Source of the DNA: Ginglymostoma cirratum
Taxonomy: Eukaryota
Assembly (NCBI GenBank): GCA_024137785.1
Contig: JAHRHZ010000289.1
Span: forward strand, 42,100,578-42,164,577
Direction of reading: 5' to 3'
DNA length: 64,000 nt
How positions within the stretch are numbered: the stretch's first letter is position 1; each line of letters starts with the position of its first letter. The notes beneath the pieces are model-generated. The model saw only the letters and a program-made list of their open reading frames with translations. It made no database searches and had not been told where the DNA came from. Below, piece after piece: positions 1,396-57,043 of this stretch. The position numbers were made by a program, and so were the translations under genes.

Positions 1396-1484
1396 TCTAT
1401 ATCTCTTCTAGGCATGCCCACTTTGGAGAAATTCTGCTCCTCCCTCCAACAGGATTTTCGTTCCAGTCTTTCTTCTTGTCCACT

Positions 1485-1622
1485 CAGTTCTGAGGAAGGG
1501 TCACTGGACCCGAAATGTTAAATCTGTTTTTTCGTTAACAGATGCTGCCAGAACTGCTGGGTTTTTCCAGCAACTTTGTTTTTGTTCCTGATTTACAGTA
1601 TCCGCAGTTCTTTCGGCTTTTA
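1485..1622 (+). mobile_element. Penelope-like terminal repeat (family 2) with hammerhead motif at 1490-1520
   Basis: cagtt-CTGAGGA-AGGGTC-ACTG-GACCC-GAAATGTT; related copies at 17346-17576, 17800-17930, 56149-56245, 61050-61290. Confidence 0.75.
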
Positions 1623-7810: not shown

Positions 7811-7977
7811 ATATCATTCGGTATCAGAACTCATAACAGTCAATGCAATGAAGGCCAAGAAATACCCTATATCCCAAGACATTGAGCTACTATCCTCAAG
7901 AAAAGGCCAGAGACCAGATTGCAAAGTATCAAATTGAGATGTTAGGAGCCCAGCAATTTTCCTGAAAATTCCTGCAA

Positions 7978-24933: not shown

Positions 24934-25680
24934 AAGTGTATCAGAGATAAAAGGTACTGCAGATGCTGGAGAATCCGAGATAACAAGCATGGGGCTGGAT
25001 GAACACAGCAGGTCAAGCAGCATCATAGGAGCAGGAAAACTTGACGTTTCGGGCCTAAACCCTTCATCAGAAATGGGGGAGGGGAAGAGGGTTCTGAAAT
25101 AAATAGGGAGAGAGGGGGAGGCGGATAGAAGATGGATAGAGGAGAGGATAGGTGGAGAGGAGACAGACAAGTCGAAGAGGCGGGGATGGAGCCAGTAAAG
25201 GTGAGTGTAGGTGGGGGGATAGGGAGGAGATAGGTCAGTCCAGGGAGGACGGACAGGTCAAGGGGGCGGGATGATGTTAGTAGATAGGAGATGGGGGTGT
25301 GGCTTGAGGTGAGAGGGAAAACAGGTTAGGGAGGTGGAGATGAGCTGGGCTGGTTTTGGGATGCGGTTGGGGGAGGGGAGATTTTGAAGCTTGTGAAATC
25401 CACATTGATGCCATTGGGCTGCAGGGTTCCCAGGCTGAATATGATTTGCTGTTCCTGCAGCCTTCGGGTGGCATCACTGTGGCATTGCAGGAGGCCAAGG
25501 ATGGACATGTCATCTGAGGAATGGGAGGGGGAGTTGAAATGGTTCGCGACTGGGAGGTGCAGTTGTTTGTTGCGAACTGAGCGCAGGTGTTCTGCAAAGC
25601 GGTCCCCAAGCCTCCGCTTGGTTTCCCTGATGTAGAGGAAGCCACAACGGGTACAGCGGATGCAGTATACCACATTGGCA
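24934..25680 (-). mobile_element. 5'-truncated Penelope-like element: GIY-YIG endonuclease plus 3' repeat with intact hammerhead
   Basis: VYCIRCTRCGFLYIRETKRRLGDRFAEH...PVANHF...LGTLQPNGINVDF; 13-bp TSD gaccacagattaa (24921-24933 / 25681-25693). Confidence 0.92.
25043..25070 (-). ncRNA. Minimal type I hammerhead ribozyme
   Basis: auuu-CUGAUGA-A-GGGU(UUAG)GCCC-GAAA-CG-UC-aagu; stem I AUUU/AAGU, palindromic ACGU in place of helix III, GUC cleavage triplet. Confidence 0.8.
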
Positions 25681-25789
25681 GACCACAGATTAAGGCAATT
25701 TCTGGAAACTAATGTAAACTAACATGGACTACCTGAACTGAAATTCCAATTTTACATATTTAAAAATGACAGGATTCACAGGACATGGG

Positions 25790-27239: not shown

Positions 27240-28070
27240 TTGAATGAGGAAAGTACTGTAGCCAGGTTTATGAAAAACACAATGATAGGTGGGAAGGCTA
27301 GTGGTGTGGATAATACATAGAGTCTTCAGAGGGATAGAGATAAATCAAGTGAGTGGCAAAACCCGGGCAGATGGAATATAATGTGGGAAAATGTGAGGTT
27401 ATGCACTTTGCCAGGAAGAATTGAGGACTGAATATTATTTAAATGTGGAAGGACTGCAGAAAGCTGCAGCACAAAGGCTCATGCATAAATCACAAACATC
27501 TAGCATCTAAGTTCAGCAAATAGCGTGAAAGGCAAATGGAAGTTTAGCCTTTATTTTGATGAGAATGGAATATAAAAACAGGGAGGTCTTATGAAAAATA
27601 TACACGGCACTAAACAACCCAGAGCTAGAATACCATGAACAGTTTTCAGCCCCTTATCTGAGGAAAGGTAGACCAGTATTGGAGGCACTCTAGAGGAAGG
27701 TTGATTTGGCTGATACCAGGTATGGAAGGACTGTCTTCCGAGGAGGGGTTGACTAGATTGGGTTTGCACTCATTGGAGTATAGAATGAGAGGTGACCTTA
27801 TTGAAACATTCACAATTCTTAGAGAACTTGACAAGGTAGATGTGGAAAAGTTGTTTCCCCTCGTAGGAGAGCCTAGGACCAGAGGGCATAATCTCAGATT
27901 AAGGACACACTCATTTAAGACAAAGAGGAGAAGGCATTTCTTCTCTCAGATGGTAGTGAACCTGTGGAAGTCTTTACCACAGAGGGCTGTCAAGGCTGGG
28001 TCATTAAGAATATTCAAGGCTGAGACAGACAGATTTTTAACCAGTAAGAGAATTAAGGCAGGGAAGTAGT
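27240..28070 (+). mobile_element. CR1-clade LINE 3' fragment
   Basis: LGLHSLEYRMRGDLIETFTILR...TRGHNLRL...VVNLWKSLP. Confidence 0.85.
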
Positions 28071-29253: not shown

Positions 29254-30469
29254 GATATGGATTAGATCAAGTTTACAGAAAGGGCCAAACAGGAAGCTGA
29301 TGGGGCATTAGCATCTAGGTGTAACCAAGGCACAGATGAGCATTCAGGAACAGATGGACCACATGGCCCATAATGGTAGTTCACCAAACTCCTCCCCCAC
29401 ACCAAGGGCAGTTAGGGATGGGGCAACAAATCCTGGTCTTGCATGTGACACTAACATCCCAGCAAGGAACCAAACTAAAGTTGGTGTAAAGGTGAGAGCA
29501 GTCATGTCACACACAGGAGAGAGACTGTCATATCCTTTTCCTCTGACTTTCCAAATGTTATTGCAACAAATCCAAATATTTTCACTGACTTTTACAGATC
29601 ACATTAATCAGGGTCCATTCTCTTAGCTCCTATGGGTTTCAAAATTATTCGTAAAACCCACCAAATGCTGAATATGGATTTACCACTGTACCATAGGAAG
29701 TGATAGCGCAGGTTGTACATAAGTACACAAGTTATTGCCCAGAGACTCTTCAACAACACTGATATTCCATCCTCTATAAACCTGCGTGATAAGTAAATTC
29801 CCTCACTTCTTAATAACACCCACCAACAGCAGCCCAACTACAAGCAGAAAAACCAATTTATTTAAGCAAATCTTCATTAGAATGTTCAAAATGTAAAACA
29901 GCCTTAAAATGCAAAGCCACACAAACATCATCAGGTACAATGATCAAACTAAAATTGATGATTAATCCAGAAAAAATCTTCCACTTTTAAAGAAAAGTTC
30001 TATAGCATTTTCAACATAAGTTGCAAATCAATAAAACTCCTTGGAATTCCGGTGTTCCATTCTGCAGGGAACTCAGATTCCTTAAACCTCTCTGGCCTGT
30101 TAGAGCTGTCGTGCCTGATGTTTTGAGATCTGAGCCTCCCTGCTAGCAACTATCCCATCACAAGCAGGAAAATGGGACAGAAGAATATGTTGATAGGGTG
30201 AGGTGAGGTCGAGCAGGAGAGCACTCAAGTGGAGCATAAACACCAGCATGGACTAGATGGGTCGAATGTCCTGTAAATCACATGTACATACTCACAGATG
30301 TGAGGTTCTTTCAAGTTTAGCCTAATGCATGAATCGGAGATAAACCAGCCACAGTGAGAGAACATTCATAGTCACATAGTCAAAGACACATTGCAGTTTC
30401 TGCATGAATAATTTTCAATCTCTGCGCAAAGAATTGCACTTTCAACTTCCATTCGCTATTAGAGAACTT

Positions 30470-31115
30470 CAACTAGGTCATGTTTGGAGTATTGTGTGCA
30501 GTTCCAGTCCCCACACTATAGGAAGGGGTGTGGAGGCTTTCCATAGGGTGCAGAAGAGGTCTACCAGGATACTGCCTGTATTGGATTGTATTACCCACAA
30601 GGAGAGGTTGGAAAAACTTGTATTGTTTTTGCTAGATCATCGGAGGCTGAGCGACTACCTGACAGAAAAATATAAAATTATGAGGGACATGGATAGGGTG
30701 GATATTCAGAGTCTTTTCCCCAGGGTGGAAATGTCAAATACCAGGGGACATAGATTTAAGGAAAGAGGGGGGATATTTAAAGATGTGAGAGGCACTTTTT
30801 TTTGACACAGAGGCTGGTAGGTACCTGGAACATGCTGCCAGGGGACGTGCTGGACACATATTATAGCAACATTCAAGAGGCATTTAGACAGACAATGACA
30901 AGCAGAGAATAGAGGAATATGGACCATGTGCAGGCAGATGGAATTAGTTTACAATGCCATTGTGGTCAGCACAGACATGGTAGGTCGAAGAGCCTGTCCT
31001 ATGTTCTATTATAAACATAGTATTTGGCAAGTTCTTCTTCAGTTTGGGATTATGTTCAGCATGGACTGGTTGGGCTGAAGGGTCTGTTTCTGTGCTGTAT
31101 GATTCTATGACTCTG
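30470..31115 (+). mobile_element. CR1-clade LINE 3' fragment
   Basis: RVQKRSTRILP...KYKIMRDMDRVD...SNTRGHRFK. Confidence 0.85.
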
Positions 31116-34030: not shown

Positions 34031-34038
34031 TTAATTCG
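34031..34038 (-). CDS. CD74: Probable CD74 terminal coding exon (x-N-stop) followed by ~1.5 kb 3' UTR
   Basis: Strong acceptor taaactttctccttcatttcag; phase 1 gives CG AAT TAA, like the very short last coding exon of mammalian CD74. An intervening small exon cannot be excluded. Confidence 0.55.
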
Positions 34039-37000: not shown

Positions 37001-40000
37001 GGAACTTGCTGATGGTGGTGTTCCCGTGTGCCTGTTGTCCTTATCCTTCCAACCAGATGATCCTGTCAGCTTGGGAGATTATCGAAAATATATTGGCAAG
37101 TTGCTGAAGTACATCTTGTAGATGGTACACACTGCTGCGACTGTGCATCGGTGGTGCAGAGACCGAACGTTAGTGCATGTCATATCAATGAAGTGTCTTG
37201 CAGCAGCCTAGGTGCTGCCAAGCTTCTTTAGTGTTGTTAGAGCTGCACCCATCCAGGCAAGTGGGGAAGTAATATTCCATCCCACTCCTGACTTGTGCCT
37301 TGTAGATGGTAACAGACTCTGGGGAGTCAGGAAGTGAGTTGTTCAGCACAGAACTCCCAGGTTCTGATTTGTTTTTGTAGCCATTGTACTTTCATGAATG
37401 CTCCTGTTAAGTTTGAGGCTATTAGTGACAACTATGATGTTGTCAGTGGGGATTCATCGATGATATTGCTACTGAATGTGGAGGACTGAAGCCTAGCTTC
37501 TCTTATCTTCAATGTTCTTGTATAGTCTGAGTTTTTCTTACCCCTTAGCAGCACAAGCCTGGATGTTGCCCAGGTCTTGATGCGCATGGGCAAAAGGGTC
37601 CGCCAGTGTCTGAGAATCCATGTCCCATGACACGGAGGACTTTTAAATCACATTCAACTCTCACGTAGAAGAAGAAAACTGAAACATACGTTTGCAGCTT
37701 AAATGCCCACGCGTGGATGTTCCTGAGATCTTTGTTCCATTCGGATAAGAGCACCAGCAGAATCCTGTGCTCGGCCAACATTGCTTTGCCTCATAATTTC
37801 CCATCTCATCACAAGTGGGGCGGTAAGCTCCAGGAACAGGCTTCACTCGGCGACGTCTCTCACACTCGGTGTCCATGCTGCGCACTGAACGAGGGAAGAT
37901 AGTGGTTGACATCACAAATGATGCTTTTCTTCCCCCACATTCCACTGCCAGTAGCCCACTTTCAGGGTTTTAAAATCCTCACCTCTCGTGTTTAACCCCA
38001 TCATGGTCTGTCTGCTCCCCCGGTCTGTATAGCCTCCAAACGCGCCAAGACTGCTACACCCTGCTCAGTCTGACCTCTTCACCAATACAGTCAGCTATTC
38101 CTTCAATTGCCTTAGGTCCTGAACTCTGGAATTCCTCTTCCAAATCTCTCCAGCTCTTACCCCAACTTTGTCCTTAAAAGCTACTTCTTGGACCATGTTT
38201 CTTCTGTTATCTCCTTGTGTGTCTTGGTGTCAATCAGTCCAGCGAAGTACATTACGATGTTAGAGGCACTAAGTAAATGCATTTTATTGTTGCCACTTTT
38301 ATTCCCCTTGTTCAACTTGATGTTGCCAAGTTTCTGTCCAAGGCCTGTGTAATTGGATGGTGTTATTGGAGATGTGATTTGCAACCCTGCTAACTCAAGC
38401 GTGTTCTCCAGTAAAAGAAGGGATTTGGAGGAGGAGTGAGAGGTTGGTAAATGGCACATTGAGAAACAAGATCACCCATTCAGCTTGAGACCTCCCTGTT
38501 GAAAAGGTGATCAAGAAATCTGGACAGGCTCCAAATGGGCTTCTTCCTCTACTTATTTTATTCATTAATATGAGCATTGCTGCCTGGGCCAGCAGTTATT
38601 GCCTGTCCCTGAGGGAGGGAGAGAACACGCTTCCTTACGCTACTGCAGTCTCTGGCAGGTAGGTAAACCCACAATGCTGTTAGGGAGGGAAGTTCAGGAT
38701 TTTGAACCGGCAGTGGAGGAATAGTGATATATTTCCATATTAGGATGGCGTGTGGCTTGGAGAGGAACTTGCTGATGGTGGTGTTCCCGTGTGCCTGTTG
38801 TCCTTATCCTTCCAACCAGATGATCTTGTCAGCTTGGGAGATTATCGAAAATATATTGGCAAGTTGCTGAAGTACATCTTGTAGATGGTACACACTGCTG
38901 TGACTGTGCATCGGTGGTGCAGAGACCGAACGTTAGTGCATGTCATATCAATGAAGTGTCTTGCAGCAGCCTAGGTGCTGCCGAGCTTCTTTAGTGTTGT
39001 TGGAGCTGCACCCATCCAGGCAAGTGGGGAAGTAATATTCCATCCCACTCCTGACTTGTACCTTGTAGATGGTAACAGACTCTGGGGAGTCAGGAAGTGA
39101 GTTGTTCAGCACAGAACTCCCAGGTTCTGATTTGTTCTTGTAGCCATTGTACTTTCATGAATGATCCTGTTAAATGCCCATGCTGCTGTTGGACTGGGGT
39201 GGACGTGGTCAGAAACCACACAACACCAGGTAATAGTCCAACAGGTTTATTTGAAATCACAAGCTTTCGGAGCCTCGCCCATTCATCACCTGACAAGGGA
39301 GCAGTGCTAAGAAAGCTTGTGTTTTCAAATAAACCTGTTGGACTATTACCTGGTGTTGTGTGGTTTCTGACCTTGTCTCTGTTGAGAAGGTGTACGAGTG
39401 AAAAGCTATACCTTAATCATTCAAAAGAACCTGAAAGGACTCAATCCTTTGGAATTGTCGCCCTGTACAGGATGAGCAGATCAGTCCTGGATTTGACAAC
39501 AGGGAAAGGCAGTGAGTGTAGCGTCTGGGGTGAACTCACTTTGGTTCTGAGATCAGCTTGCAGCCAGCTCTTTAAATCCACAGTTTGCAAATCCATGGAA
39601 GTCCAGTGTTGAATAATGCAAATGCAAGCTGAATTCACACCTTACAAGATTACTTGAGAATACTGATATGGAATTAGTCTTCCCAAGTGATCAGTCTGGG
39701 TGCACATTAACTGTGGGAGAAGACTAAAAGGTTGGCAAGGGTCTATGATAATGGGAGACAGTTCACAGGCTGAGAGAGGCAGTTCGTGGTTAATTGCTTC
39801 GCTAATGTTTGTAGGACTGCATAACAGACCATTGTGTTGGATTTATGACTGGACCCATTATCCAGAGGTTTGTAAAACTAATGTAAGCAACTCTACTTCC
39901 AGTCCCACCATAGCAGCCTGTATGTTGGGAGTGCAATTCAAAAATATGACACTGAAGTGGAAACAACGCTAATCAGTGAAAGTGACCAAGAAGTTGTGTT

Positions 40001-43000
40001 GTCCGTAAAATAGAGAAACCTGCTACGTTTACCTAGTCTGAGCTGACATGCTATACCACCATGGGTGACTCGGAACTGTTCTCAGAAAGTAGCTCAGCAA
40101 AACCTTCAGCTTCCGCAAGGAATTTCTCAGAGTGCAAAGACAAAAGATCCACCATTACCCTCGTCAATGGCTCTTGCCATCAATGTCTGCATCAACAATT
40201 AATCATCATCTCTCTCCAAAAAACGGCTATTACTTTTTGTGACTGAGTTTGTTTGGAGCAAGGTCGTCTTTCCCAATTCGTCAATAATGATTCAGGGCCT
40301 TTTGTATCAGCTTGGCTCTGCGGTTGTACAACCTCATGGTTGAGCCTTGAGCTCTAAGGACAGGAGACCATTCTGCCCATCTGTCTGTCCTCTGGTTGAT
40401 CAAACTAAACTGACTCAACAGCCAGTTTTACTCCCTGCATTATCATCAGTACTTGCCGGTCTTTTCCTTAGATGCAAGATCAACCCAGCCTCAAAAAAAT
40501 TCCCAGTGGTAAAAATTCTCCCTATCTCAAGGTAAAAATATTTCTCTTAACTCCATTGTGATTGCTTCCTATGGCTGGTAAGTCAATCTTTCCTTTAAAT
40601 TGATTCCTTAATCAAAGGCAAATCTCAATTAAGACCTTTGTTTTCTTGTCTCTCATGCAGGTAATCCCAGTGTCACAAGTCTGTCCGCATAACATGACTT
40701 ATCCCCAGCACCATTCAGGTGAATCCAACCCTGTACACATTATGAACTTTGGTTCAAAGCCTCACTCACATCATGCGCCCACAAACTGGAGGAACAGCAC
40801 CTCATATTCCGCCTTGGGAGCCTACAGCCCAATGGCCTAAATGTGAATTCTACCAGTTTTAAAATCTCCCCACCCCCGGCCTCATCCCATGACTAACCCT
40901 CTCTCTCATCTCTGCCTCTTTGACCTGACACAGCCTGCCCATCTCCTCTCCCGCCTATCCACCCCTCCTGTCCCACTGACCACTCCCTACCTGCACTCCC
41001 CTATCACCATCCCACCTACCTTTCCCAGCCCGACCCCTCCTCATTATTTATTTCCCACCTCTCTTGCCCCTCCCCATTTCTGAAGGGTCCCAACCCAAAA
41101 TGTCAACTCTCCTGCTCCTCTGATGCTGCCTGGCCTGCTGTGTTCCTCCAGCTCCACACTGTTATCTCTAACATTACTAGTGGATATACGTGTTAACCAT
41201 AGCAAGCATTGATTCTGAACTGCGTGCATGTGTATCAACTGGTAACAATGAAGCGACTATAGGAGACCTACATGAGGGAGATGAAGTCATCTGTTCCTCC
41301 CAGCATGTTAGCCTCACCAACACATGACTCAAAGTCACCCAGAGACTGTATTTGAAAATTTTCTGAATGAAACCTAGTGCAAATGCATTTGAATAAATCT
41401 TACAGGCTCCTTAGCCTGTCCAACAGATTAGATACTCATTTAGTCATCAAGTCTCACAATCTATTCACTTCCACGAGAGCTAAAAGCAGGTCGAATATTG
41501 TTCCCACAGATTAGTTGTGAATGTTCTGCCTTTGTGTGTGCAACCCCTTGGTTCTGAACAATGGACAATAGACAATGTGACTGTGAACAAGGGCAAAACA
41601 TCATGATGCCGATCCTGACTTTCTCGTCCATCCATTTGAGTCTGTGATCTCCACGTTGGGATGGGGCATGGGTCTATTCTCACTACACCCAGACCAGCCC
41701 CTTCCAAACCTGTACTTGCTCTGGGCTGAACATTGGATTTTGAAAAGTTACCTTTCTTTGATACTGGAGCTTTTGCAGGTTCTGGAAGGCTAACCATCAT
41801 TGACTTCATCGCAACACTGGAGAAAATCTTTCTCTCTGTTGTAAACAGGAACAAAGAAGGGGTTTCAAACATACCAAAGTCATTCTAACTTTCTTCTTTC
41901 ATCACTGGTAGAAGAGCGCAGCTTGGTACCGATGGGATTCACATCCTGTCCCTCCCACAGTGCATGCAATTTTATGGGCTCTTAGTGAAGTCTCACTTGA
42001 AGATTCTCAGACTCGATTTCAAATCCATCCATTGGCCTCACCCCTCCTGTTCTGTGCCCTCACCCCTCCGTATCTGGCCCTCTGTGCCCACACCCTTCTC
42101 CACCCCCAGCCGTCAATCTCGTCGCCCCTCCCTCTATGAACCCCCAGCTCTATGGCCCTCCTGATCGAACTGCCATCTTCTGATTCTGGTTTTGCCCAAA
42201 TTTTTGATTTTCTTCCTTCCACGATTGACTTCGACCTTCCTGGACCAAAATTCTGGAACAGGCTCCCTAAATGTCATCACCTCTATCTTTCCCTCTCTCT
42301 CCCCTCCTGTTTTCCCTAGCAGGGACACATATTGAAGATGACCGGTAGAAGGATTAGAGTGGACAGGAGGAAGATGGTGGGTGGGTGACTGGAATTCACT
42401 GCCCAGTTTGGTGGTTGAGGCAGAGACCCTCACCTCAATTCAGAGGAGCCTGGAACGTGCCCCAAAGTGTTGGAACCAGCAAAGCCACAGACCAGGTGCC
42501 GGGGAGTGGGATTATAATGGACAGGTGTATAACTAGCCAGTGCTGATGCGATGGGGTTGAATGAACCCCCTTCTGCACCATACCTTTTCTCCAGGTCTAT
42601 GGTCTATGAATGTTTCCTTTTCAAATGTACAACCAATGAAGAAAAGGCCGTACAGTAAATGAGAAAGTAAGCAGATAATTTGTTTCTTTCTCCTCCCAAG
42701 TGAAGTTGGTTAAGGGACAAATATTGGCCTCCCCTTTCTCTTTGAGGTTTTCAGTGGTGTCCATGGAGACCACTTCTAAAAATGTACTTCACTAACTGTA
42801 CAGGTCTTTGGGACCTCCTCAAATTCCTGTACTTGTTTCATCGGGTGATCCTTACCAAAGTGAGCATTTGTTGCCCATCCCTAACAGCCCTTTGATCTGA
42901 ATAGTTGGGGGAAGCAGTTAAGAGCTAATCACATTGCTGTGGGTCTGGGGTCACATATAGGCCAGACCAGGGTAGGATGCAGCTTTCCTGCCTGAAAAGG

Positions 43001-46000
43001 ACACTAGAGAAGATGATAGGTGTACACTGTACCTGATCCTTATCATGACTAGTTTTCAATTCCAGGTGTTTCAAATGAATTGAAATCCCACCAGCTCTCA
43101 GTGGGATTTGACTCCATGTTCCCAGGGTACAAGCCCTGGGTCTCAGGATTATTAATTTTGTCACATTACCACACCGCAACACAAGCCATTTCAATGCTAG
43201 CCTTTTGTTGTGGCGTTGACCCCGTGGGCAAAACCTGTGCTCACTGATCCCAATTTCCATTTGTCAAACAGGTTGGTCACTCATGTAGGCTACAATCATT
43301 GGTCAACATTGCAGACCAACAGTGATTGTACTTCAGAAGATGTCCATTGCCTAAGACTTGCATTGGCATGCCCTTAAACAAACAAATGCAAGACCCTCAT
43401 TCTTTCCAATGTATGCTGAAGGTGAGCCAGCGCTGAGAGATCACCCCCTTCAGGACAAGGAATGAAATACAGGACAGTCACGTACCACGGGGTTGAGGTT
43501 CAGGTTCAGGTATAGGGTCGAATCGGGGTGCACTGGTTGTTGGAGCAGACTTCTTCTCTTGAATGAGCTGGAAAAAGAGCCAGTTTCGGAGCCAAGTTTC
43601 GAAGTCCTGTAAACAGCAAAGATATAATCAACTATCGGCATTTATGAATTGGGCATAGGTCATTAGAACTGGTTTGTGGGATTCCACCCACCCCTCCCGG
43701 CCCCCAAACTGAGGGGATTAAATTTGAGTGTAACTGAAACAAAAGCTGAATGGCACCAAAACATTTTGCCCTGCACTCATCAGGACAAATGCAAGCATGC
43801 TAAATTTCAAAGGGAACATAATGCATACAATCAAGTGTTTATTGGTTGGCAAGTGAAGAACGTACCATGGAATTAATGTCCCAGGCAGTTGTATTTAATT
43901 TTAAAGAGGGGTAATACTTGGAGATGTTCCTTTCTCCTGGAGAGGACAAGTCCCTGTGTCTAAATATATGTACCTTCTAGCAGGCATAATGAAGCCACAT
44001 TAAGAGTTTGACTGATAGTGTTAAATTTGTTGCGAGTATAATTTGTAATACTGAACAAGCCTGAGTGTACGTGCTGCACAATCACAGAACCACATTTAAC
44101 ATTAAGTTCTGAGTTTTGCAATAAATGGACTGGTTGAATAGTCGTCAGTCTGTCTATTTTGAGCAGCAAAGGGATGCGTTGTTTGATATCATCTAACAGT
44201 CATTGGGACATCAGCCTATACACCTGACATCACACAGGCACTAAAGTCCATATAACACAACACTTATTTGTGGGGTAAGCCCCCAGTGTGCTGAATGGAC
44301 TCTTCCGGTTCTTACTTTGCAGAGGAATTCAAAGTGAGGAGTGAATGTGTAACACGTTAAATTTCTCCTGCTTATTGGATTTATTACGTTCACCAGAGAA
44401 AGTGTTGTGAATCTGGAATTCACTAGTGCTGGGAGTAAAATTACAGAAGGAAAGCCAGACAGACACCTGATGAATACCTGTTGATTTCTTTTAATAAGTG
44501 CACAATATTAATTGATATCACGTGGGAGAAAGGAATAGAAGGTTTGGACTAGTAGGGTGAAGGGATGTACGATAGCAGGTAGTTTTTTTAGCGTGTAGAA
44601 GCCAGTATGGAGCAGATGGACCAAATAGCCTGTATCTGTGCTATAATTCAGTATCATCAACACTAACCTGCCACTCAGATTCCGTCATGCTGTCTCGCAG
44701 CAGGTCGAGGTTGGCAGAGAAAGTGCTGTTAAATTCTGGAATCTCTTTGGTTGCGTTGTCTTTCTGCCAATGAAAAGTCAAAGACAATGTCATCATTGGG
44801 CTGACCATGTTCCCATCAGTCAACTCTTCATTCCAGTTACACTACGGGCCACACCCAAATAGCTCTAGTGTCCATGAGCTGTCTTTTTACCGTGGATGGC
44901 AAAGTTGAGAGTTATCAAAGCCTTCGGTAACTTGTGCCCTTTTTCTAGAATTCCTACAGTGCAAGCCAGAGGCCATGGGGCCCACTGAGTCCACAGCGAC
45001 CCTCTGAACAGCATCCCATCCAGACCCACCTTATCCCTGTAACCCTGCATTTCCCATGGCCAATTCACCTAGCCTGCACATTCCCGGACACCGTGGCTAT
45101 GCTAAGCTGCCTGGTTCCCCCAAGCTGCACACGTTTGGGATGTGGGAGGAAACTGGAGCACCTTGGAAGGTGTTTGGGGTAGACGGTGGAGAATGTGCAA
45201 ATTTCACCAGAAGAAAAAAAGTCGCCCAAGGCTGGAATCAAACCTGGTCTCTGGCTAGATACATAGATTTTTGAACAGTAAAGGACTTAAGGGTTATGGA
45301 GAAGAGGCAGGTAAGTGGAGCAGAGGCTATGAGAAAATTGGCCATGCCCTTTCTTATGTTCCTTGCGCTGTGAGGCAACAGTGCTCTATTTAGGTCACGA
45401 TGGGAGAGTGAGTTGATGCTGCAGAACCAATCAGTCCATTGAGCCTGGGCCAGCTCTTCGAAGGAGCTCCCCAATTTGTTAGGGGGAATGAGTGGAACTT
45501 GCAGAGGGATGGTGTTCCCATGTATCTGATGCGCCAGCTGCTCCAGATGTGGGCAGTTGGTGGAATGGAGCTAAATAGATAGCTCTTTCCAGGAGCTGGC
45601 ATGGGCATGATGGGCTGAATGGTCTCCCATTGTGCTACAAACAATTTGCACTAACCATTCATTTTCCCTGTAGTCCTGGACATTTACAATGTCATTCAGC
45701 AATCTTTAAAGTCAGTAGATCAGCTCCAGTTGGGACATTGCGGTCAGTTCCATATGGTGTCAGAGGTGAACAGCTTCAGGTTATGTGAAGTAATGGGAGA
45801 GCAGGGGGATGGTCTCTCTTGGCCAGAGGAGGTTATCAACCCAGTGGCTTGCTGGAATGCATGGCCAGAAATGGGTAATGGCAGATTAAATCGTAAATGC
45901 TCAAAAAAGATTTTGCATAAACACTCAAATTGCCTTTTTACACAATTCATTGATGGGCTGGGAGTGTCTAGCTAAGCCACCATTTTTGTTGCCCATCCTT

Positions 46001-49000
46001 AAATGCCCTTGAGGAGTTGGTGATAAGATGCCTTCTTGAACTGCTGCCATCGATGTAGAGACATCCCAAGTGCTGTCAGAGCTCCAACAGATTGGCCCGT
46101 CAAGGCTGAAGGAAAAATAATGCGTCGCCAAGTCAGGGGGATGAGTGGAACTTGCAGAGGGATGGTGTTCCCATGTATCCGATGCGCCAGCCGCTCCAGG
46201 TGCGGGCAGTTGGTGGAATGGGGCTAAATAGATAGCTCTTTCCAGGAGCTGGCATGGGCATGATGGGCTGAATGGTCTCCCACTGTGCTACAAACAACAT
46301 TTTATGGGTTCACAACAGCTTTGAGAAGATTCCCCTTCAACAGTACCTTCAGCAGTTCTTCTACTTGTTCCAGCACAGTCAGGGGTTTGGCAGGAGTAGG
46401 TTTCGGAATCTGTTAGAAAATAAATGACTGTTCATTTCCATGTTTAATTAACCATAATAAAGCACTTTAAATCAAAATGCACCACAATGCCTTGCTCCGG
46501 TCCTGTCTACATGATTACAGTCAATCTTAGGCACCACAAGGTTAACTGGCACAGAGTAATTTTCTCAGGTTGCTGCTGCTGGCCCTGAGGAAGTACTAGA
46601 GCTGCCACCTTTCAGGAGACAGGTTGAACCCAGGCCCTCTCAGCTAGGTGCAGAAGCTCCTACTGCGTCTATTGTACATACTGCAGGGCTGTTCCCGGTT
46701 TAAACGTCAGCTGGCCACGAAAAAGACTTAACCAGGTCAATATGATCACCATCAAGATTAGCAAAGAGACAAATCTGAAAATCTTGAATGTCAAAGATGG
46801 GATGGAGAGCATCAACTTGGTGGAATTAAATCCAAAAATGATTTTAGTGGAGGTAACCTCAGCCTCTGAATTTGGAAGCTTTCACTGCCCATGATATGGC
46901 GAGGTTTTTAATAGGTAAAAAACACATGATAGGTTCCTGGGCATAGTGCGGGAGACAGAATGGAAAGGGAGGTGCCCATCCTCTCTCCCATCCCCCCCAG
47001 CTCATTGAGACAAGTGCCAACAGCTAATTAGAACTCTAAGATGATCTCTTCATCCAACAAGTTGGTTTTGGAGATCAGTCTCTGCATTTGACCAACATGA
47101 AAGCAACAGTCAATGTTGTGCACAGCAAGATCCAATTTAAAAAACTGCACATGAGATAACCGCAAGTGTTAGTTCTAGGTTTTCTCTAAGTTGGACATTA
47201 CCTTTGGACGTTCTGCATTTGGGTCAATGTAGGCCATGGGCATGTCCAAAATCATAGGTTTGACATGAATCATTGGCTTAGGTGCTGAAAAAGAAAGAGT
47301 GGCGTTTTTATTAGTACAACTTAGTGACAAGATGAAATGAAGATCGGAAGTTGGACATTCGTCTCCCGATAGGGGTGCGAATTGGGTTCAGAAGGACGAT
47401 GATGAACCTCGCTTTCTTTGAGCAGGAAAAATCAATTTTCCAGTACTTTCCCGACTCCGCACTATTTTCACATGGTCTTTTCATAGGTCAAGAGGACTTC
47501 AGATGCAAAACAGAAACAGTTAGTCTGCATGACCCTCCTGTGCTACTATGAAGACCAGAGAAAAACTGTATCACCTCCCACACACTACTTTCATTTTAAT
47601 CGCCCCCAGTGAACAATCCTCCTTGGAAACTTTATGAACACTGGAGAAAGACTGCCAAGGAATCCTGGACATGCTGGCAGCTAGACTTTAAATATTTTCA
47701 TATATCCAAATTCACTATTAGACGCCATGCTGTAATATTGAATGCATTATTAACGTAGTGATTGATCATGGGGTCTATTCTACAAAAAGGTAAACTCCCC
47801 ACAATCTTGGTCACCAGTGTACAAGTATTGACCTGCATTAAAGCATTTTTTTCCTCAAATGGGCAAAGTGCCATAATGCATTTAAGCTGTGGAAAGACAT
47901 GTTGGAAAATCCTCCTCTTAATTGGCAGTGGGATTTAGATGCACAGACATCGATGACTGTGAAGAAAATTCCAAGGGTCTCCTTCCTGTCCTTAAATTGA
48001 CAGAAAAGCAGATGAAACAATCTTTATTTCCATATCAGTCTTTCGAGCTAGGATACTAACGTTACAATGGCTGTCATCATTCTGAATTGCAGATTCTGAT
48101 CATGTCCCACATTTTTAATCCAAATTCCAGCACAGTCACAAGCTTGAAAATCCAAGCTTTAGGTGGATTACGGAAGATTTATGGAGCCAAAGTGGATAGA
48201 TTAGGGAAGGAAAAAGATCAGTGATCATCTCATTGAACAACAGAGCAGGCAATAGTTCTAGCCGTGAATTACAAAAATCTAAAACCTTACAACAGAAAGA
48301 GGCTGTGCAGCCCATTGGGAACTATCTAATCTAGTCTCACACCCAGCTTTAAACTCCAATGTGTAGGTGCTGATGTTGGACTGGGGCAGACAAAGTCAGA
48401 AGTCACACGACACCAGGTTACAGTCCAACAGGGCTTATTTGAAATCACAGCACTCCAAAACCTAGTGATTTCAAGTAAACCCATTGCAAAATAAATTTGA
48501 GATAACAAGGTGTGGAGCTGGATGAACACAGCAGGCCAAGCAGCATCAGAGGAGCAGGAAGGCTGACGTTTCGGGCCTAGACCCTTCTTCAGCAATATAA
48601 ATTTGGTGTCATGCAACTTCTGGCTGTAATCTCGGAAGCTTGCAAGTTATTCTTCCCCAATATCCATTTGGTTTCTGAAATTTCTGACATAATCTGGCTC
48701 CACCACTGTCGTGGGTTATGAGTCCAAGGTCATATCAACTCCACTCACTCCCCATAGTATTTTTGGGAGCTATTTTATATCCTGTGGCTGTTTGCAACCA
48801 GAAGGGAGAAACTGAGGAACAACCCGATGGAAGCTTTGAAGATTATGAAAAGGTTTGGTAGGGTAGACAAAGTTAGTTCAACTCACCAGAAGGGGTGTTG
48901 GGGCATCACAAACGTGAGGAAGTCACAATCAAAAACAAGCAAGAAAGATCAGGAGAACTTCTTTCTCCCTGAAAAGAATAAGGAATACCCAGGAAACAGT

Positions 49001-52000
49001 GAGGATATGGAATACATTGCTGCATGGAGTGATTTGGTCCATGATGTTGATAGGAAATTAGATAAACGAATGATGGCTAAAGGAATAGAGGGATACGTTG
49101 ATGGGGCTAGATGAAGAAAACAAGGAAGAAGCTGATGTTCAGCATAAATATTGGGATGAATGGCCTGTTTCAAAGACCAGGCCACCATGTAATATTGAAG
49201 CACTCAATGTTTTTTCCTAGTTACATCGTGAAAAGAAATGTGGCAACCAGTAACCCTCCTAAATCTCTCCTCACCACTAACTGCTCCAAAACAGAATAGT
49301 CCAATTCATCAACAATCACCACAAACCATCCCCCACCCCAAGAGCGACCAGTGGAATCATTTGGAGTTGGTGTTTAACTCAGACTCGTGAATCACTCTGG
49401 TGGTAGAATTCAAATTACAATAGCTGATGTGGTCTTCCTCAATCTATTCACCGATTGGTTCTGTTGCTCTGCTCACACCCACACCCACTTCCCACCCCTC
49501 AGATTGGTTTAGACGATAACAGTTAGTTGGGGAAGGGGGCACGGTGTACATACGGAATCGGTTCCGGTTTGAGGTGTACTTCTGCTGGATGAGACTGGTC
49601 GTCTGTTGCAGGTGGGTTATCGTGCTCTGCTGCTTCACCAAAAAAACAACGCTGGCAACTTGCCCGGCGATCAGCATGGCCGCCAACACGGTCACACCAC
49701 CCCAAAGAAGGCTCTTGGAGCAGGTGGGGCTGCTGTAATGAAGAACAATGAATGAATACCATTAATGCTAAGTTCAAAGGAGTTGCCATAACTCTGTCTA
49801 GATGCATGCTGGGTGTTTTCACCATGTGGCCTTCCAACTCTTCCCACAACCCCATTCTTCTCACAGCCAGTTGGATAGTCAACAGGTACACTCTTGCTGG
49901 ATTGGTTGGCTCTTAATTGTTGACTAAACTGCCTTTGATTCCCCCTCACCATAACTAGCCCTCCCGTTCCAATACCCTTAAATCTCATGACATTCATTTA
50001 ACTGCTCAATTAAAAGGGCTGTTTTGGTAGGAGTAGGCCATCAAGCCCATCAATCTGCTCCACCATTCAGTGCGGCCATGTCTTCCAGTTCACGTCAATA
50101 CTGTTTTCCCACACCATCCCCATATCCCTCTTCGTCGCTGGTACTTAGAAAGTTGTCAATCTCTTTCATGCGCCTTCCAGTTGTTCCTTGTGGTGTGTGG
50201 GGGAATTCAGACTCAATTTTGTCAGCTCTCCAAGGATGATCCTGGATGACCCCATTGAGGTTCCCCCTTTTCTAATTTAGTGCTGATATTTTGGAATAAA
50301 CTTATGTGGAATAAACTTCCAGAGGAAGTGGTAGATGCAGGTACATTTACAACATTAAAAAGACTTTTGGTCAGATACATGGATGGGAGCAGTTCAGAGA
50401 GCTGTGGGCTAAATGCAGGCAGGTGGGACTAGTTTAGTTTGAGAAACTTGGTCAGCATTCACTGGTTGGACTGAAGGGCCTGTTTCTGTGCTTTGGTATA
50501 ATAGAGTCCGCTATATCTGATCAGACGATGGACCTGTTTCAGTGAACCAGACTCTAGGAGAGTACGAATCAGACAATATAACCTAGCTCTGTTTTTGTGT
50601 ACCATCCATGGGTTAAGTTTACTCACATCTCAAGATCATAATCTCGCCTCATTTCTCCATCGATGTTTGGTGAATAGCTGCAGGGCTTTGTTCTCCTACC
50701 CAGTGCATAAAACCTTCATTATTGAACCCATTCTGTCAAATATTACTGATAAAAGGTACTGCAGATGCTGGAGAATCCGAGATAACAAGCATGGGGCTGG
50801 ATGAGCACAGCAGGCCAAGCAGCATCACAGGAGCAGGAAAACCCGACGCCTCGGGNNNNNNNNNNNNNNNNNNNNNNNNNNNNNNNNNNNNNNNNNNNNN
50901 NNNNNNNNNNNNNNNNNNNNNNNNNNNNNNNNNNNNNNNNNNNNNNNNNNNNNNNNNNNNNNNNNNNNNNNNNNNNNNNNNNNNNNNNNNNNNNNNNNNN
51001 NNNNNNNNNNNNNNNNNNNNNNNNNNNNNNNNNNNNNNNNNNNNNNNNNNNNNNNNNNNNNNNNNNNNNNNNNNNNNNNNNNNNNNNNNNNNNNNNNNNN
51101 NNNNNNNNNNNNNNNNNNNNNNNNNNNNNNNNNNNNNNNNNNNNNNNNNNNNNNNNNNNNNNNNNNNNNNNNNNNNNNNNNNNNNNNNNNNNNNNNNNNN
51201 NNNNNNNNNNNNNNNNNNNNNNNNNNNNNNNNNNNNNNNNNNNNNNNNNNNNNNNGAAGGGTTTGGGCCCGAGGCGTCGGGTTTTCCTGCTCCTGTGATG
51301 CTGCTTGGCCTGCTCTGTCAAATATTACTGTTGTCCAACTTCGAAGGTTCCAACAAGACCTGCCCTAATTTGTGAATGTCATGAGAATTTGATCAATTCC
51401 TGTTGTGTTTCTAGAATTCAGACTTTTCTCGATCAAACAGCATCAGGAAAGTCCCAAATATTTTCCACTCAGCTGATGCAAACAAGAGTCAGTAGTCACC
51501 TCGGTGAAAACAAAAATAGGGGCAATGGACACAGCGGTAAAGAGGGGTCATGGGTAAGAGGGTCAACTTTTTGTGGTAGCTGTAGATATTAATTACTCCA
51601 GGCTCTTGTCTTTGAACTGTGCATCATCCCCCTGTGTTACTCCAGGCGACCTTTTCCCTTGGACAATATTCACTGCCCTAACAAGGGACAACAGTCAAGA
51701 GGATAAGTGTGGACAGTGGCTCAGTGGTTAGCACTGCTGCCTCACAGCACTGGGGACCCAGGTTTGATTCCAGCCCTAGGTAACTGTCTGTGTGGAGTTT
51801 GCTCCAGTTTCCTCCCACAGTCCAAAGATGTGCAGGCTAGGTGGATTGTCCACGGGATATTCCCCATAGTGTCAAGGAATGTGTAGGGTAAGTGGATCGG
51901 CCATGGGAAATACAGGGATAGGATGGGTCTGGGCTGGGATGTCCTTCCAAGGATTGGTGATGGGTTGAATGGCCTCCTTTTACATTGTATGGATTTTGTG

Positions 52001-55000: not shown

Positions 55001-57043
55001 CCTGGCTGAACAGGCAGGATCTGCACTAAATCAGCAGCAATTCATGGCTCAGTGGCGACTTCTGGTGGAGCGACTGTTTGTGGGTCTGAGTGTAGTTGAG
55101 TGATGTTGGCAATCCTGTTTAAACTTGGCAAATAATAACACTGAGCCAAACTTTTTTTGGGGGGGCGGGGGGAACCTCGGTTGCACAGAGCCGCATCAAC
55201 TTTTTTTTTTTAAGAGACTCTCTTATCTACATGGCAGATTTGATGTTTTTGGAAGGCAGAGATCTAGCTTCAGGGAACAGAGTAAGATCTGACAGGCTTC
55301 AAAAGGACTCCAAAGTTTAAAATACAATAAAAGAAATATATAGGGATGGGGCTGGATGAACACAGCAGGTCAAGCAGCATCATAGGAGCAGGAAAACTTG
55401 ACGTTTCGGGCCTAAACCCTTCATCAGAAATCATTCCTATGATGCTGCTTGACCTGCTGTGTTCATCCAGCCCCATGCTTGTTATCTCGGATTCTCCAGC
55501 ATCTGCAGTACCTTTTATCTCTGAAAAGAAATATATAGCTGCCTAAGAAAAAACAAAAAAAAAAAAATCTAAACTCAGCTCCCAGCTAGAACTGTTTAGA
55601 TTCTGATCGAGCTGCTGTTAAGTCCCATGTACAGACATTAAACAGAGAGAATGGTTCATTTCACACAAAGAGTCGACCTGCCATTGTGTAGAGACTGAAC
55701 CATCCGAAGAAAACTGACGCGCGCCCCCACAATCTGGCATAACTTCGCTGGTTTTGCAGTATATAAAAGATACAAGAATTAAAGGTTAGAGGAGAAAGAT
55801 TTGCAAACGTACAATGAATTTTATGAAGTCCATTTAAAGTTGGTAATGTAGAAAATACAGCCACAGATTGCAGAGCAAGATTCCACAAACAATAATGTAA
55901 TAAAATGACCAAATCACTTTTTTTTTTAAAATTGTGCACGATGTTGGTTGAGTGATAATTTGACCAGGACAATTGGCTCTAAAATTAAAAAAAAATGCAC
56001 AGGTGCATAAGAAAAGTGAGCAAAAAAAAAAAAAATCTACATTCAGGTCCCAGCTAGAACTATTGAGATTCTGCATCTGAGCGGCTGTTACACGTCCCAC
56101 GCAGTGACATTAAAGAGAAAATGGTTCATTTCGCACAAAATGTCACAATTCTGAGGAAGGGTCACTCATAACCGAAACAGTAACTCTGCTTTCTCTCCAC
56201 GGATTTTGCCAAACCTGCTGAGCTTTTCCAGCAACTTCTAATTTTGTCACTGGGCACCACTCCCCTGTTCCTTTAATGATCAGCTATATTTACCACAGGA
56301 GGCAGAGTTTTGTTTTAAAAGTGCCTTAATCTTCTGCAGTGGAACACACAATCCCGATGTGAAACTACATCACAATTCCACATTGTCACTGGGTCAAAAT
56401 CTTGGAATTCCCCCCAGTTTACCTCTATCCCCAGGACTGCGATGTTTCAAGAAGGCAGCTCACTACCATCTGCTCAATTAGGGACTAGCAACAAATGCTG
56501 GTAAAGCCTGATTGTTTTAAGAAATAGACAATTCCCCGCAAAGAAAATTAAGCTAAACCCGACAAACATCCTCAGGAGGTTTCACAGACTGTGCACCTCT
56601 CACGCATGAGACTCCACTAAGCAGCAAATAAAAAAAAAAATGGTAAAACACTCGAGGGTGGAAATCTGAAAAAGATGCAGAAAATGCTGGAGATACCCAT
56701 GGCATCATGAGAGAGAGAGGCTGTTAATATTTCCAGCCTGATTTAATTCTTTTCCAGGACATAGTACCTAGATCTGAGTTTTGAAGTTATACCAGACTAG
56801 AAATATTAACTCTACTTCCCTCTGCATAGCTACTGAGTCCCTCCAGAAAGCATATCTTTTCAATCTCTCACCAGCAAACAATTCCACAAAGATTTTCTTA
56901 TAGATGTTAAAACAGAAGGGTTGTGCATGATCTAAATCTTACCTCTGGCCGGTAACAGTAGTCCTGGCTTCCACACTGCTCTGGCTAGCAATATCTTGCT
57001 GTGAATTATTCAGCAAAGCGTTCTGCTGCTCGTCGGCTGACAT
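34031..57043 (-). CDS. CD74: MHC class II invariant chain (Ii/CD74), spliced gene; coding exons 57043-56943, 49732-49554, 47284-47202, 46409-46347, 44763-44668, 43606-43486, 41835-41752, 37884-37690, probable last exon 34038-34031
   Basis: Manual splice reconstruction gives one open frame. It contains an N-terminal dileucine-type motif (EQQNALL), a juxtamembrane Cys, a type II TM with LIAGQ, a Met/Pro-rich CLIP segment, a trimerisation domain (NLDLLRDSMTESEWQDFETWLRNWLFFQL) and a thyroglobulin type-1 domain. All introns are GT-AG with matching phases. Confidence 0.96.
36724..37410. repeat. Direct repeat copy A (downstream of the thyroglobulin exon)
   Basis: Near-identical to 38505-39173 apart from scattered substitutions and one ~18-bp indel. 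Confidence 0.92.
37690..37884 (-). CDS. CD74: CD74 thyroglobulin type-1 exon (p41-type, equivalent of exon 6b)
   Basis: 195 nt, phase 1-1; six Cys, [33 protein letters not shown]; acceptor tcttccctcgttcag, donor C|GTATGT. Confidence 0.96.
38505..39173. repeat. Direct repeat copy B (upstream of the thyroglobulin exon)
   Basis: Near-identical to 36724-37410. Confidence 0.92.
39188..39375. mobile_element. Fold-back insertion, Penelope-like family 3, degenerate hammerheads
   Basis: Arms 39207-39268 / 39311-39372; ctgacaagggagcagtgctaagaaagctt on + and gtgatgaa...ctccgaaagctt on -; related fragment at 48374-48480. Confidence 0.7.
40680..41170 (+). mobile_element. Penelope-like 3' fragment (end of GIY-YIG plus terminal repeat)
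   Basis: KLEEQHLIFRLGSLQPNGLNV at ~40783-40845, followed by a family-1-like tail. Confidence 0.8.
41752..41835 (-). CDS. CD74: CD74 additional linker exon (ERKIFSSVAMKSMMVSLPEPAKAPVSKK)
   Basis: Pyrimidine-rich acceptor ccttctttgttcctgtttacaacag, donor AAG|GTAACT; 84 nt, symmetric phase 1-1, open in frame between exon 6 and the thyroglobulin exon. Confidence 0.8.
43486..43606 (-). CDS. CD74: CD74 exon 6 (DFETWLRNWLFFQLIQEKKSAPTTSAPRFDPIPEPEPQPR)
   Basis: Acceptor tttgctgtttacag, donor G|GTACGT, phase 0 to 1; matches human VFESWMHHWLLFEM. Confidence 0.95.
44668..44763 (-). CDS. CD74: CD74 exon 5, trimerisation domain (KDNATKEIPEFNSTFSANLDLLRDSMTESEWQ)
   Basis: 96 nt, phase 0-0, donor CAG|GTTAGT; resembles human [25 protein letters not shown]; two N-glycosylation sequons (NAT, NST). 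Confidence 0.95.
46347..46409 (-). CDS. CD74: CD74 exon 4 (IPKPTPAKPLTVLEQVEELLK)
   Basis: 63 nt, phase 0-0, acceptor ttttctaacag, donor AAG|GTACTG; EQVEELLK aligns with human EDHVMHLLQ. Confidence 0.92.
47202..47284 (-). CDS. CD74: CD74 exon 3, CLIP region (PPKPMIHVKPMILDMPMAYIDPNAERPK)
   Basis: Acceptor ctctttctttttcag, donor AAG|GTAATG, phase 1 to 0; PPKP plus a Met-rich core as in mammalian CLIP. Confidence 0.93.
48499..48592 (-). mobile_element. Penelope-like terminal repeat (family 1) in CD74 intron 2
   Basis: CTGAAGA-AGGGTCTAGGCCC-GAAACGTC on the minus strand; 5' strand of stem I lost. Confidence 0.8.
49554..49732 (-). CDS. CD74: CD74 exon 2, transmembrane segment (SSPTCSKSLLWGGVTVLAAMLIAGQVASVVFLVKQQSTITHLQQTTSLIQQKYTSNRNRF)
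   Basis: Acceptor ttcttcattacag (tandem CAGCAG), donor C|GTATGT, phase 2 to 1; resembles human [33 protein letters not shown]. Confidence 0.95.
50749..51313. mobile_element. Fold-back Penelope-derived insertion spanning a 400-N gap, 17-bp TSD
   Basis: tctgtcaaatattactg at 50732-50748 and 51314-51330; mirrored arms. Confidence 0.78.
51711..51996 (+). mobile_element. tRNA-derived SINE (HE1-like)
   Basis: A/B boxes and the same body as the other copies. Confidence 0.8.
52150..52380. promoter_or_regulatory. Candidate CD74 intron-1 enhancer
   Basis: Cluster in apparently non-repeat DNA: ATGCTAAT, GGGGTTTTCC (52213-52204), TGAGTCA (52248-52254), GGAAAATTCC (52263-52272), ATTGG (52273-52277). Confidence 0.35.
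55344..55523. mobile_element. Fold-back Penelope-derived insertion in CD74 intron 1, 15-bp TSD
   Basis: aaaagaaatatatag at 55329-55343 and 55524-55538; arms 55345-55387 / 55435-55477. Confidence 0.88.
55400..55427 (-). ncRNA. Minimal type I hammerhead ribozyme, sense to CD74 pre-mRNA
   Basis: auuu-CUGAUGA-AGGGUUUAGGCCC-GAAACGUC-aagu, identical to the copy at 25043-25070. Confidence 0.78.
56943..57043 (-). CDS. CD74: CD74 exon 1, cytoplasmic tail MSADEQQNALLNNSQQDIASQSSVEARTTVTGQ
   Basis: ATG with A at -3 and an in-frame TAG 39 nt upstream; donor AG|GTAAGA, phase 2; acidic-dileucine endosomal sorting motif similar to human DDQRDLI. Confidence 0.9.

What the first reader, a model, noticed from the sequence alone, without database searches (positions are those of the whole stretch)
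41752..41835. Extra CD74 exon may encode a second CLIP-like peptide
Seen: a clean, symmetric (phase 1-1, skippable) 84-nt exon between the trimerisation and thyroglobulin exons, with no positional counterpart in mammalian CD74. Its core VAMKSMMVSLP aligns ungapped with the exon-3 CLIP core IHVKPMILDMP (K, M and P identical, hydrophobic spacing kept), and the two exons are 84 and 83 nt. Known (from memory, verify): cartilaginous-fish Ii has an extended linker before the thyroglobulin domain, and CLIP duplication has been reported in some teleost CD74a. Inference: this linker could be a duplicated CLIP C-terminal to the trimer domain, offering an alternative groove-filling peptide in a lineage without a clear DM editor.
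Basis: partly seen in the sequence, partly recalled or inferred. Interest (0 to 1): 0.72.

Follow-up and report, generated by a model that had tools for sequence, protein, structure and literature searches.

The report
Second CLIP-like exon in shark CD74
Shark, ray and chimaera invariant chain (CD74), the escort protein of MHC class II, carries an extra exon, spliced in every junction read we saw, whose peptide resembles the groove-blocking CLIP peptide and likely arose as its copy; it may act as a second placeholder in animals that lack the peptide-loading helper DM, but binding is untested.

Summary
The exon is real. It lies at 41835-41752 (minus strand, 84 nt, phase 1-1) in a nurse-shark-type CD74 gene. 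In one RNA run 483 reads join exon 6 to it and no skipping joint is listed; the thyroglobulin exon is the alternative one (43 vs 369 reads). The segment is in 15 of 16 aligned chondrichthyan CD74 proteins, chimaera included; 161 bony-vertebrate CD74s give no comparable match. Its likeness to chondrichthyan CLIP beats composition-keeping shuffles (0 of 3000) and is strongest in catsharks and rays (11/21, 13/24 identical, up to exon 3's end). The nurse-shark pair alone is not significant. The 84/83-nt match is coincidental. Best reading: an old, degenerate copy of the CLIP exon, likely a weak second groove-filler. Binding was not shown. Rival: a copy of the post-thyroglobulin exon. Ray-finned fish, also DM-less, have a CLIP-like C-terminal tail (8 of 16 vs 0 of 35 lobe-finned fish/tetrapods). 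The two key earlier papers were not held, so novelty is unverified.

The parts
41752..41835 (-). CD74 extra exon ('exon X'), 84 nt, phase 1-1, CLIP-like peptide; included in all junction reads listed
41795..41835 (-). conserved block of exon X, residues 214-227 (ERKIFSSVAMKSMM; family motif G-R-K-I-[FY]-S-S-x-A-M-[KR]-P-M-M; Ser replaces Pro here)
47202..47284 (-). CD74 exon 3, CLIP, 83 nt, phase 1-0
   Evidence: Pfam PF09307 covers residues 5-113
56943..57043 (-). CD74 exon 1, coding part (cytoplasmic tail)
49554..49732 (-). CD74 exon 2 (transmembrane and stalk); tandem CAGCAG acceptor
46347..46409 (-). CD74 exon 4, 63 nt
44668..44763 (-). CD74 exon 5, 96 nt (trimerisation domain)
43486..43606 (-). 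CD74 exon 6, 121 nt (end of trimerisation domain plus Pro-rich tether)
37690..37884 (-). thyroglobulin type-1 exon, 195 nt, phase 1-1, alternatively spliced (about 1 in 10 transcripts in run X13)
34031..34038 (-). coding start of the last exon (two residues, then TAA)

Best explanation
The 84-nt exon is a spliced, conserved part of cartilaginous-fish CD74 that likely arose as a copy of the CLIP exon and likely supplies a second, weaker peptide that would fill the MHC class II groove. Shown: it is included in the RNA examined, sits about 20 residues C-terminal of the trimer domain (CLIP sits about 20 residues N-terminal of it), is conserved in sharks, rays and chimaera, and resembles their own CLIP. 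Inferred origin: exons 3-6 form a phase 1-to-1 block, so a tandem duplication stays in frame; the copy of exon 3 kept its phase-1 acceptor, gained a phase-1 donor, and the other copied exons were lost before the chimaera/elasmobranch split. Inferred function: exon-3 CLIP fills the groove in the ER; when endosomal cathepsins cut between CLIP and the trimer domain, the released trimer would display three exon-X peptides. With Ser at P1 in the human-like register these would bind weakly and hold emptied class II receptive until a strong peptide displaces them, part of the job DM does in tetrapods. My odds: duplicate origin about 0.75; groove-binding function about 0.4.
For: Inclusion: 483 reads exon6-X, 369 X-last exon, 43 X-thyroglobulin, no skipping joint listed; the exon6-X joint is also in 5 of 5 contig sets laid. 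Present in 15 of 16 aligned chondrichthyan proteins plus skate and a second chimaera-like protein. Profile match CLIP vs X 24.9 against 10.5+-2.2, 0 of 3000 column shuffles; z 5.2, 0 of 400 gapped, best of 17 segments compared. Within species P<=0.05 in 9 of 17; 11 of 21 identical in two catsharks, 13 of 24 in stingray and manta, running to the Pro-Lys that ends exon 3. Pro at +6 from the anchor in 13 of 17 X and 15 of 17 CLIP. An exon-3 matrix scores X above all 124,733 decoy windows in 10 of 17 species (decoys are not Met-rich, so this overstates). Residues 214-227 evolve at rate 0.93, near CLIP (0.78) and trimer domain (0.81), against 1.41 and 2.03 for the flanks. In the main isoform X is followed by two residues only, so it is not merely a spacer for the thyroglobulin domain. 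Tether lengths from Pfam 133-194. Cathepsin S likely cuts human Ii between CLIP and the trimer domain (PMC11087810, passages). HLA-DR1 binds CLIP in both orientations (PMC8236899, passage). How class II is loaded without DM is stated as open (PMC8010645, PMC9586880, passages).
Against: No binding data of any kind. The best-conserved residues (R215, S219, S220) lie in the part that does not resemble CLIP, and the D-L-P half that does resemble it evolves fast (228-241 rate 1.99), which fits decay of a copy. 8 of 17 species, including the window's own, both chimaera-type proteins, electric ray and skate, do not reach P<=0.05. Nurse shark has Ser where 16 of 17 have the anchor Pro. X does not resemble bony-vertebrate CLIP (z -0.5 to 0.4). 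In the human-like register P1 is Ser and P9 varies. Exon 3 is phase 1-0 and X is 1-1, so a new donor is required. The N-half matches the post-thyroglobulin exon of coelacanth and sauropsids (z 2.9 and 2.6). The regions were chosen because they looked alike, and species are not independent.
Confidence: 0.48

Rival explanations
1. CLIP-derived, different job: exon X is a copy of exon 3, but its CLIP half is decaying and selection acts on the new G-R-K-I-[FY]-S-S motif as a cathepsin cleavage or docking site, or as a contact to the trimer domain or the outside of class II.
For: Slowest sites are R215, S219, S220, P/S225, M226; the residues after M227 run at tail-like rates. Chimaera, electric ray and one squalomorph-type protein have lost the second Pro.
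Against: M223, P225 and M226 of the CLIP-like core are among the conserved sites. A release site for the thyroglobulin domain is of little use in the 9 in 10 nurse-shark transcripts that lack it.
Confidence: 0.24
2. Exon X is a copy of the post-thyroglobulin exon 7 (duplication of thyroglobulin+exon 7, then loss of the first thyroglobulin exon); the CLIP likeness is either inherited from an exon 7 that was itself CLIP-derived or is convergent.
For: A phase 1-1 source needs no new splice site (exon 7 phase inferred from skip isoforms P0181/P0182). X vs coelacanth tail z 2.9 (3 of 400), vs sauropsid tail z 2.6 (8 of 400). An exon-7 matrix puts X under a 1e-3 decoy rate in 10 of 17 species, as high as true chondrichthyan exon-7 tails score. 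Gar's tail begins G-R-K-M.
Against: Weaker than the CLIP match on every test: under 1e-4 in 3 of 17 vs 12 of 17, above all decoys in 0 vs 10; not significant after 17 comparisons; X does not match the chondrichthyans' own exon 7 (z -0.9) or the ray-finned tail profile (z -0.4); X lacks the acidic Ser-Gly motif.
Confidence: 0.16
3. Ordinary extended linker: a Met/Pro-rich spacer whose likeness to CLIP is chance.
For: Window's own pair not significant; no nucleotide signal; frogs have gained an unrelated exon-sized insert at the same position, so the site tolerates insertions.
Against: Composition-keeping shuffles are beaten at profile level and in 9 of 17 species; a 14-residue block is conserved from chimaera to rays while both flanks drift.
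Confidence: 0.12

Closest known systems
CLIP of CD74 / invariant chain (exon 3; Pfam PF09307)
   Same: Met-rich extended peptide with M-[KR]-P-M-M-x-[DN]-[LM]-P, same Pro spacing as elasmobranch CLIP, phase-1 acceptor, similar tether length to the trimer domain.
   Different: C-terminal of the trimer domain; Ser at P1 in the human-like register; N-half unrelated to CLIP; phase-1 donor; Pfam finds only one PF09307 stretch in 7 of 7 proteins scanned; binding unknown.
Nurse shark Ii (UniRef entry returned as P0001) and its 'extended linker' (Criscitiello et al. 2012, PMID 21996610)
   Same: P0001 (243 aa) equals the window's thyroglobulin-less translation, exon X included, except for one residue at the exon-2 tandem acceptor. 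The extended linker and the +/- thyroglobulin splicing are recalled from that paper's abstract; PMC8010645 cites it for thyroglobulin isoforms.
   Different: I could not read the paper. I recall no statement there that the linker is CLIP-like, but cannot confirm it.
CLIP duplication in CD74a of some teleost orders (Dijkstra and Yamaguchi 2019, PMID 30377750)
   Same: A second CLIP-like region in a DM-less lineage (recalled, not read).
   Different: As recalled, limited to some teleost orders; exon X spans sharks, rays and chimaera and lies beyond the trimer domain. Whether that paper also marks the shark segment is unknown to me.
Post-thyroglobulin exon 7 of CD74 (acidic Ser-Gly motif; glycosaminoglycan attachment site in mouse Ii, recalled)
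   Same: Small exon C-terminal of the trimer domain, directly after exon 6 in thyroglobulin-less isoforms; I-F-S-[SG]-[VM]-x-M likeness.
   Different: X is basic and has Ser-Ser; several chondrichthyans carry both X and a separate exon-7 tail; nurse shark RNA shows no exon 7.

Membership tests
CD74 / MHC class II invariant chain gene | Type II transmembrane protein with CLIP (PF09307), trimerisation domain (PF08831) and optional thyroglobulin type-1 domain (PF00086) | tested here: met
CD74 / MHC class II invariant chain gene | Thyroglobulin exon alternatively spliced | tested here: met
   43 and 30 inclusion reads vs 369 skipping reads
CLIP (groove-filling peptide) | Sequence likeness to the lineage's own CLIP beyond composition | tested here: met
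   0 of 3000 shuffles at profile level; 9 of 17 species singly; window's own pair not significant
CLIP (groove-filling peptide) | Recognised by the curated CLIP profile PF09307 | tested here: not met
   one stretch only, ending at residue 112-119, in 7 of 7 proteins; the model is mostly cytoplasmic/TM/stalk, so this is a weak test
CLIP (groove-filling peptide) | Met at P1, Pro at P6, Met at P9 as in human MRMATPLLM (register recalled) | tested here: inconclusive
   Register A: X has P1 Ser (16 of 17), P6 Pro (16 of 17), variable P9. Register B (second Pro as P6): P1 Met 16 of 17, P6 Pro 13 of 17. The true register in sharks is unknown
CLIP (groove-filling peptide) | Position between transmembrane stalk and trimer domain | tested here: not met
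   X is C-terminal of the trimer domain
CLIP (groove-filling peptide) | Binds the class II groove and remains there after Ii proteolysis | not testable with these tools
   needs binding assay or elution
CD74 exon 7 (post-thyroglobulin exon) | Acidic residues followed by Ser-Gly | tested here: not met
   no X has Ser-Gly at this place; 15 of 17 have Ser-Ser after basic residues
CD74 exon 7 (post-thyroglobulin exon) | Sequence homology to exon 7 | tested here: inconclusive
   z 2.6-2.9 to sauropsid and coelacanth tails, none to chondrichthyan or ray-finned tails

The most novel reading that the evidence does not exclude
Jawed vertebrates without DM carry two CLIPs on CD74: exon X in all cartilaginous fish and the Met-rich C-terminal tail in ray-finned fish. 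The second, weak CLIP on the released Ii trimer chaperones empty class II in the endosome, and it was lost or remodelled in the lobe-finned line once DM took over. Invariant chain itself would be the pre-DM peptide-exchange helper.
Probability: 0.2. Interest if true: 0.85.

Novelty: new variant of a known kind. Interest (0 to 1): 0.58.

Why it matters
How cartilaginous and ray-finned fish load class II without DM is stated as an open question (PMC8010645, PMC9586880, PMC4219347; passages). A conserved second CLIP-like peptide on Ii gives a concrete candidate that can be tested with synthetic peptides and recombinant shark class II. Even if it does not bind, it marks a conserved, unexplained motif in what has been treated (as recalled) as a plain linker.

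Tried and rejected
Complex prediction of the genome's class II alpha-1 and beta-1 exons (L002, L003) with residues 208-241: no verdict (0.14, mark 0.34; single sequences, alignment not used, controls not folded). AlphaFold2 monomer: mean pLDDT 49.8, residues 215-243 under 50, uninformative; no fold search was run on it. Nucleotide likeness exon 3 vs X: none. Concerted evolution of CLIP and X within species: 1069 of 20000 permutations, driven by the two chimaera-type proteins, rejected. Exon-length match: rejected. Exon 7 in the window: six Ser-Gly or similar candidates between 37690 and 34038, none convincing and none in RNA joints. Run X14 laid only 16 reads, uninformative. The look-up of sequencing runs listed no holder on record as RNA; X13 and X14 were added by species label. 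Second CD74 copy in the genome: 1 match only for exon 6 and for exon X. Further class II alpha-1/beta-1 copies for an alignment: none. Literature: 10 searches listed no paper describing a CLIP-like segment in shark Ii; one search returned only unrelated papers; the two most relevant papers are not held. Earlier scan notes: none. Five CD74-like proteins found among the decoys were removed; the counts hardly changed. P0008 (lacks X) and P0026 (isoform of P0194) were left out of the 17-sequence statistics.

Full report
1. Observation. The window holds a CD74 gene on the minus strand: exons at 57043-56943, 49732-49554, 47284-47202 (CLIP, 83 nt, phase 1-0), 46409-46347, 44763-44668, 43606-43486, the extra exon X at 41835-41752 (84 nt, phase 1-1), the thyroglobulin exon 37884-37690 and a last exon from 34038 with two codons and a stop. 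The thyroglobulin-less translation equals P0001, named by UniRef as nurse shark invariant chain, except for one residue at a tandem acceptor. The genome gives one match for exon X and one for exon 6.

2. Splicing. In raw-read run X13 (one sample, tissue not known to me) 483 reads join exon 6 to X, 369 join X to the last exon, 43 join X to the thyroglobulin exon and 30 join that exon to the last exon. The joint table is complete at its threshold (3 reads from 2 starts) and lists no joint that skips X. The exon 6-X joint is also in all 5 contig sets laid (X2, X3, X4, X5, X7). X14 gave 16 reads and says nothing. So X behaves as constitutive here, the thyroglobulin exon is the alternative one, and in about 9 of 10 transcripts X is in effect the C-terminus.

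3. Distribution. 15 of 16 aligned chondrichthyan CD74 proteins carry the segment; the exception, P0008, is a single predicted model from a bamboo shark whose relative P0007 has it. Skate and a second chimaera-like protein have it too. Bony-vertebrate linkers between trimer and thyroglobulin domain show no such motif by eye, and an exon-3 matrix run over the post-trimer part of 161 bony CD74 sequences peaks at 10.2 bits, under the decoy maximum of 11.9. The human chain runs from trimer domain to thyroglobulin domain without it.

4. Conservation. On a 17-sequence tree, residues 214-227 have mean rate 0.93; CLIP 0.78; trimer domain 0.81; exon-6 tether 1.41; X tail 2.03. The block is slower than the flanks (Mann-Whitney P=0.0014; window chosen after inspection). 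The slowest sites are R215, S219, S220, the Pro at 225 and M226. Nurse shark is the only one of 17 without that Pro.

5. Is it CLIP-like? Profile against profile, CLIP and X score 24.9 against 10.5+-2.2 for column shuffles, 0 of 3000. With gaps, z is 5.2 and CLIP is the best of 17 segments tried. Within species, 9 of 17 reach P<=0.05; two catsharks give 11 of 21 identities, stingray and manta 13 of 24, and these alignments run to the Pro-Lys that closes exon 3. Nurse shark (188 of 1000), whale shark, smooth-hound, skate, electric ray, P0010 and both chimaera-type proteins do not reach it. Against 124,733 windows from 127 unrelated proteins, X beats all of them in 10 of 17 species and is under 1e-4 in 12 (decoys are not composition-matched). 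X does not resemble bony-vertebrate CLIP, and nurse-shark DNA keeps no trace (28 of 78). Caveats: the segments were picked for looking alike and the species are related.

6. Origin. Exon 6 ends in phase 1 and exon 3 starts in phase 1, so a tandem duplication of exons 3-6 is in frame; keeping only the copied exon 3 needs a new phase-1 donor (inference). In catsharks and horn shark the matched Pro-Lys is followed by Val-Val and 4-5 more residues before the thyroglobulin exon; Val is what a read-through GT donor would encode, which fits but is untested. In carpet sharks X is shorter, so 84 vs 83 nt is chance. The rival source is exon 7: the N-half of X matches coelacanth and sauropsid tails (z 2.9, 2.6), but more weakly on each test (3 vs 12 of 17 under 1e-4), and X does not match the chondrichthyans' own exon 7.

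7. Function (inferred). CLIP ends about 20 residues before the trimer domain and the X block starts about 20 residues after it (Pfam 133-194), so both could reach a groove. In the register that matches human CLIP at P1, P6 and P9 (recalled), X has Ser at P1 and a variable P9, that is a weak binder; with the second Pro as P6 it has Met at P1 in 16 of 17; with Phe/Tyr218 as P1, positions 4, 6 and 9 are mostly hydrophobic. Human Ii is likely cut by cathepsin S between CLIP and the trimer domain (PMC11087810, passages), CLIP can lie in either direction in HLA-DR1 (PMC8236899, passage), and cartilaginous fish lack DM and the alpha-43 Trp it needs (PMC8010645, PMC4219347, passages). I therefore favour a weak second placeholder, carried three-fold on the released trimer, that keeps emptied class II receptive. 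Against this, selection is strongest on the half that is not CLIP-like, and the CLIP-like second half drifts. No result here shows binding.

8. A wider pattern. In ray-finned fish the tail after the thyroglobulin domain resembles the species' own CLIP at P<=0.05 in 8 of 16, against 0 of 20 sauropsids, 0 of 13 amphibians and 0 of 2 lobe-finned fish; by matrix 13 of 16 vs 1 of 35 under a 1e-3 decoy rate. At profile level this is weak (z 1.6, 22 of 400; gar alone z 4.1). DM is reported for tetrapods and lungfish only (PMC9586880, passage). Two DM-less lineages with a second CLIP-like peptide and one DM-bearing lineage without is three data points, not a test.

9. Known and new. The protein sequence and the thyroglobulin splicing are known; the extended linker and a teleost CLIP duplication are recalled from two papers that were not held, whose figures and supplements may bear on novelty. 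Ten searches of the open library listed no description of a CLIP-like segment in shark Ii. Papers seen as passages: PMC6177389, PMC6523485, PMC9103719, PMC8236899, PMC8010645, PMC4219347, PMC11087810, PMC9586880; none was read whole. Verdict: real, conserved, probably a degenerate CLIP-exon copy; function open and directly testable; new variant of a known kind.

Noticed in passing
P0052, P0226, P0258, P0287, P0289, P0299, P0085 and other ray-finned CD74, tail after the thyroglobulin domain: The C-terminal tail (R-M-M-A-M-P-S type) resembles the species' own CLIP in 8 of 16 ray-finned fish and 0 of 35 lobe-finned fish and tetrapods.
   Followed up: partly
window 37690-34038: Nurse shark RNA joins the thyroglobulin exon straight to the last exon; the Ser-Gly exon 7 seen in bamboo shark, horn shark, sevengill-type shark, skate, sawfish and chimaera proteins is absent here.
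   Followed up: partly
window 49729-49732: Tandem CAGCAG acceptor of exon 2: run X13 reads fit the upstream AG, P0001 fits the downstream one (one residue shorter).
   Followed up: no
P0296, P0304-P0308, P0316, P0317, P0113/P0192: Frog CD74 long isoforms carry a conserved insert of about 40 residues at the same position as exon X, unrelated to CLIP; short isoforms lack it.
   Followed up: no
P0014 residues about 120-140: The electric ray protein lacks the 21 residues of exon 4; isoform or model error.
   Followed up: no
P0008: A bamboo shark gene model lacks exon X; real skipping or a prediction miss.
   Followed up: no
G000:C2:4351526-4351783 and 4393503-4393748 (L003, L002): One class II alpha-1 and one beta-1 exon, same strand, 42 kb apart; a second, divergent beta-1-like exon on C209 (L004).
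   Followed up: no
window 43495: A 6-nt insertion in the Pro-Glu repeat of exon 6 in one contig set (X4), probably an allele.
   Followed up: no
window 2-1518, 5782-6557, 7938-8403, 25280-25718, 27662-28066, 30380-30802: Fragments that read like reverse transcriptase and nuclease frames of retroelements (by eye).
   Followed up: no
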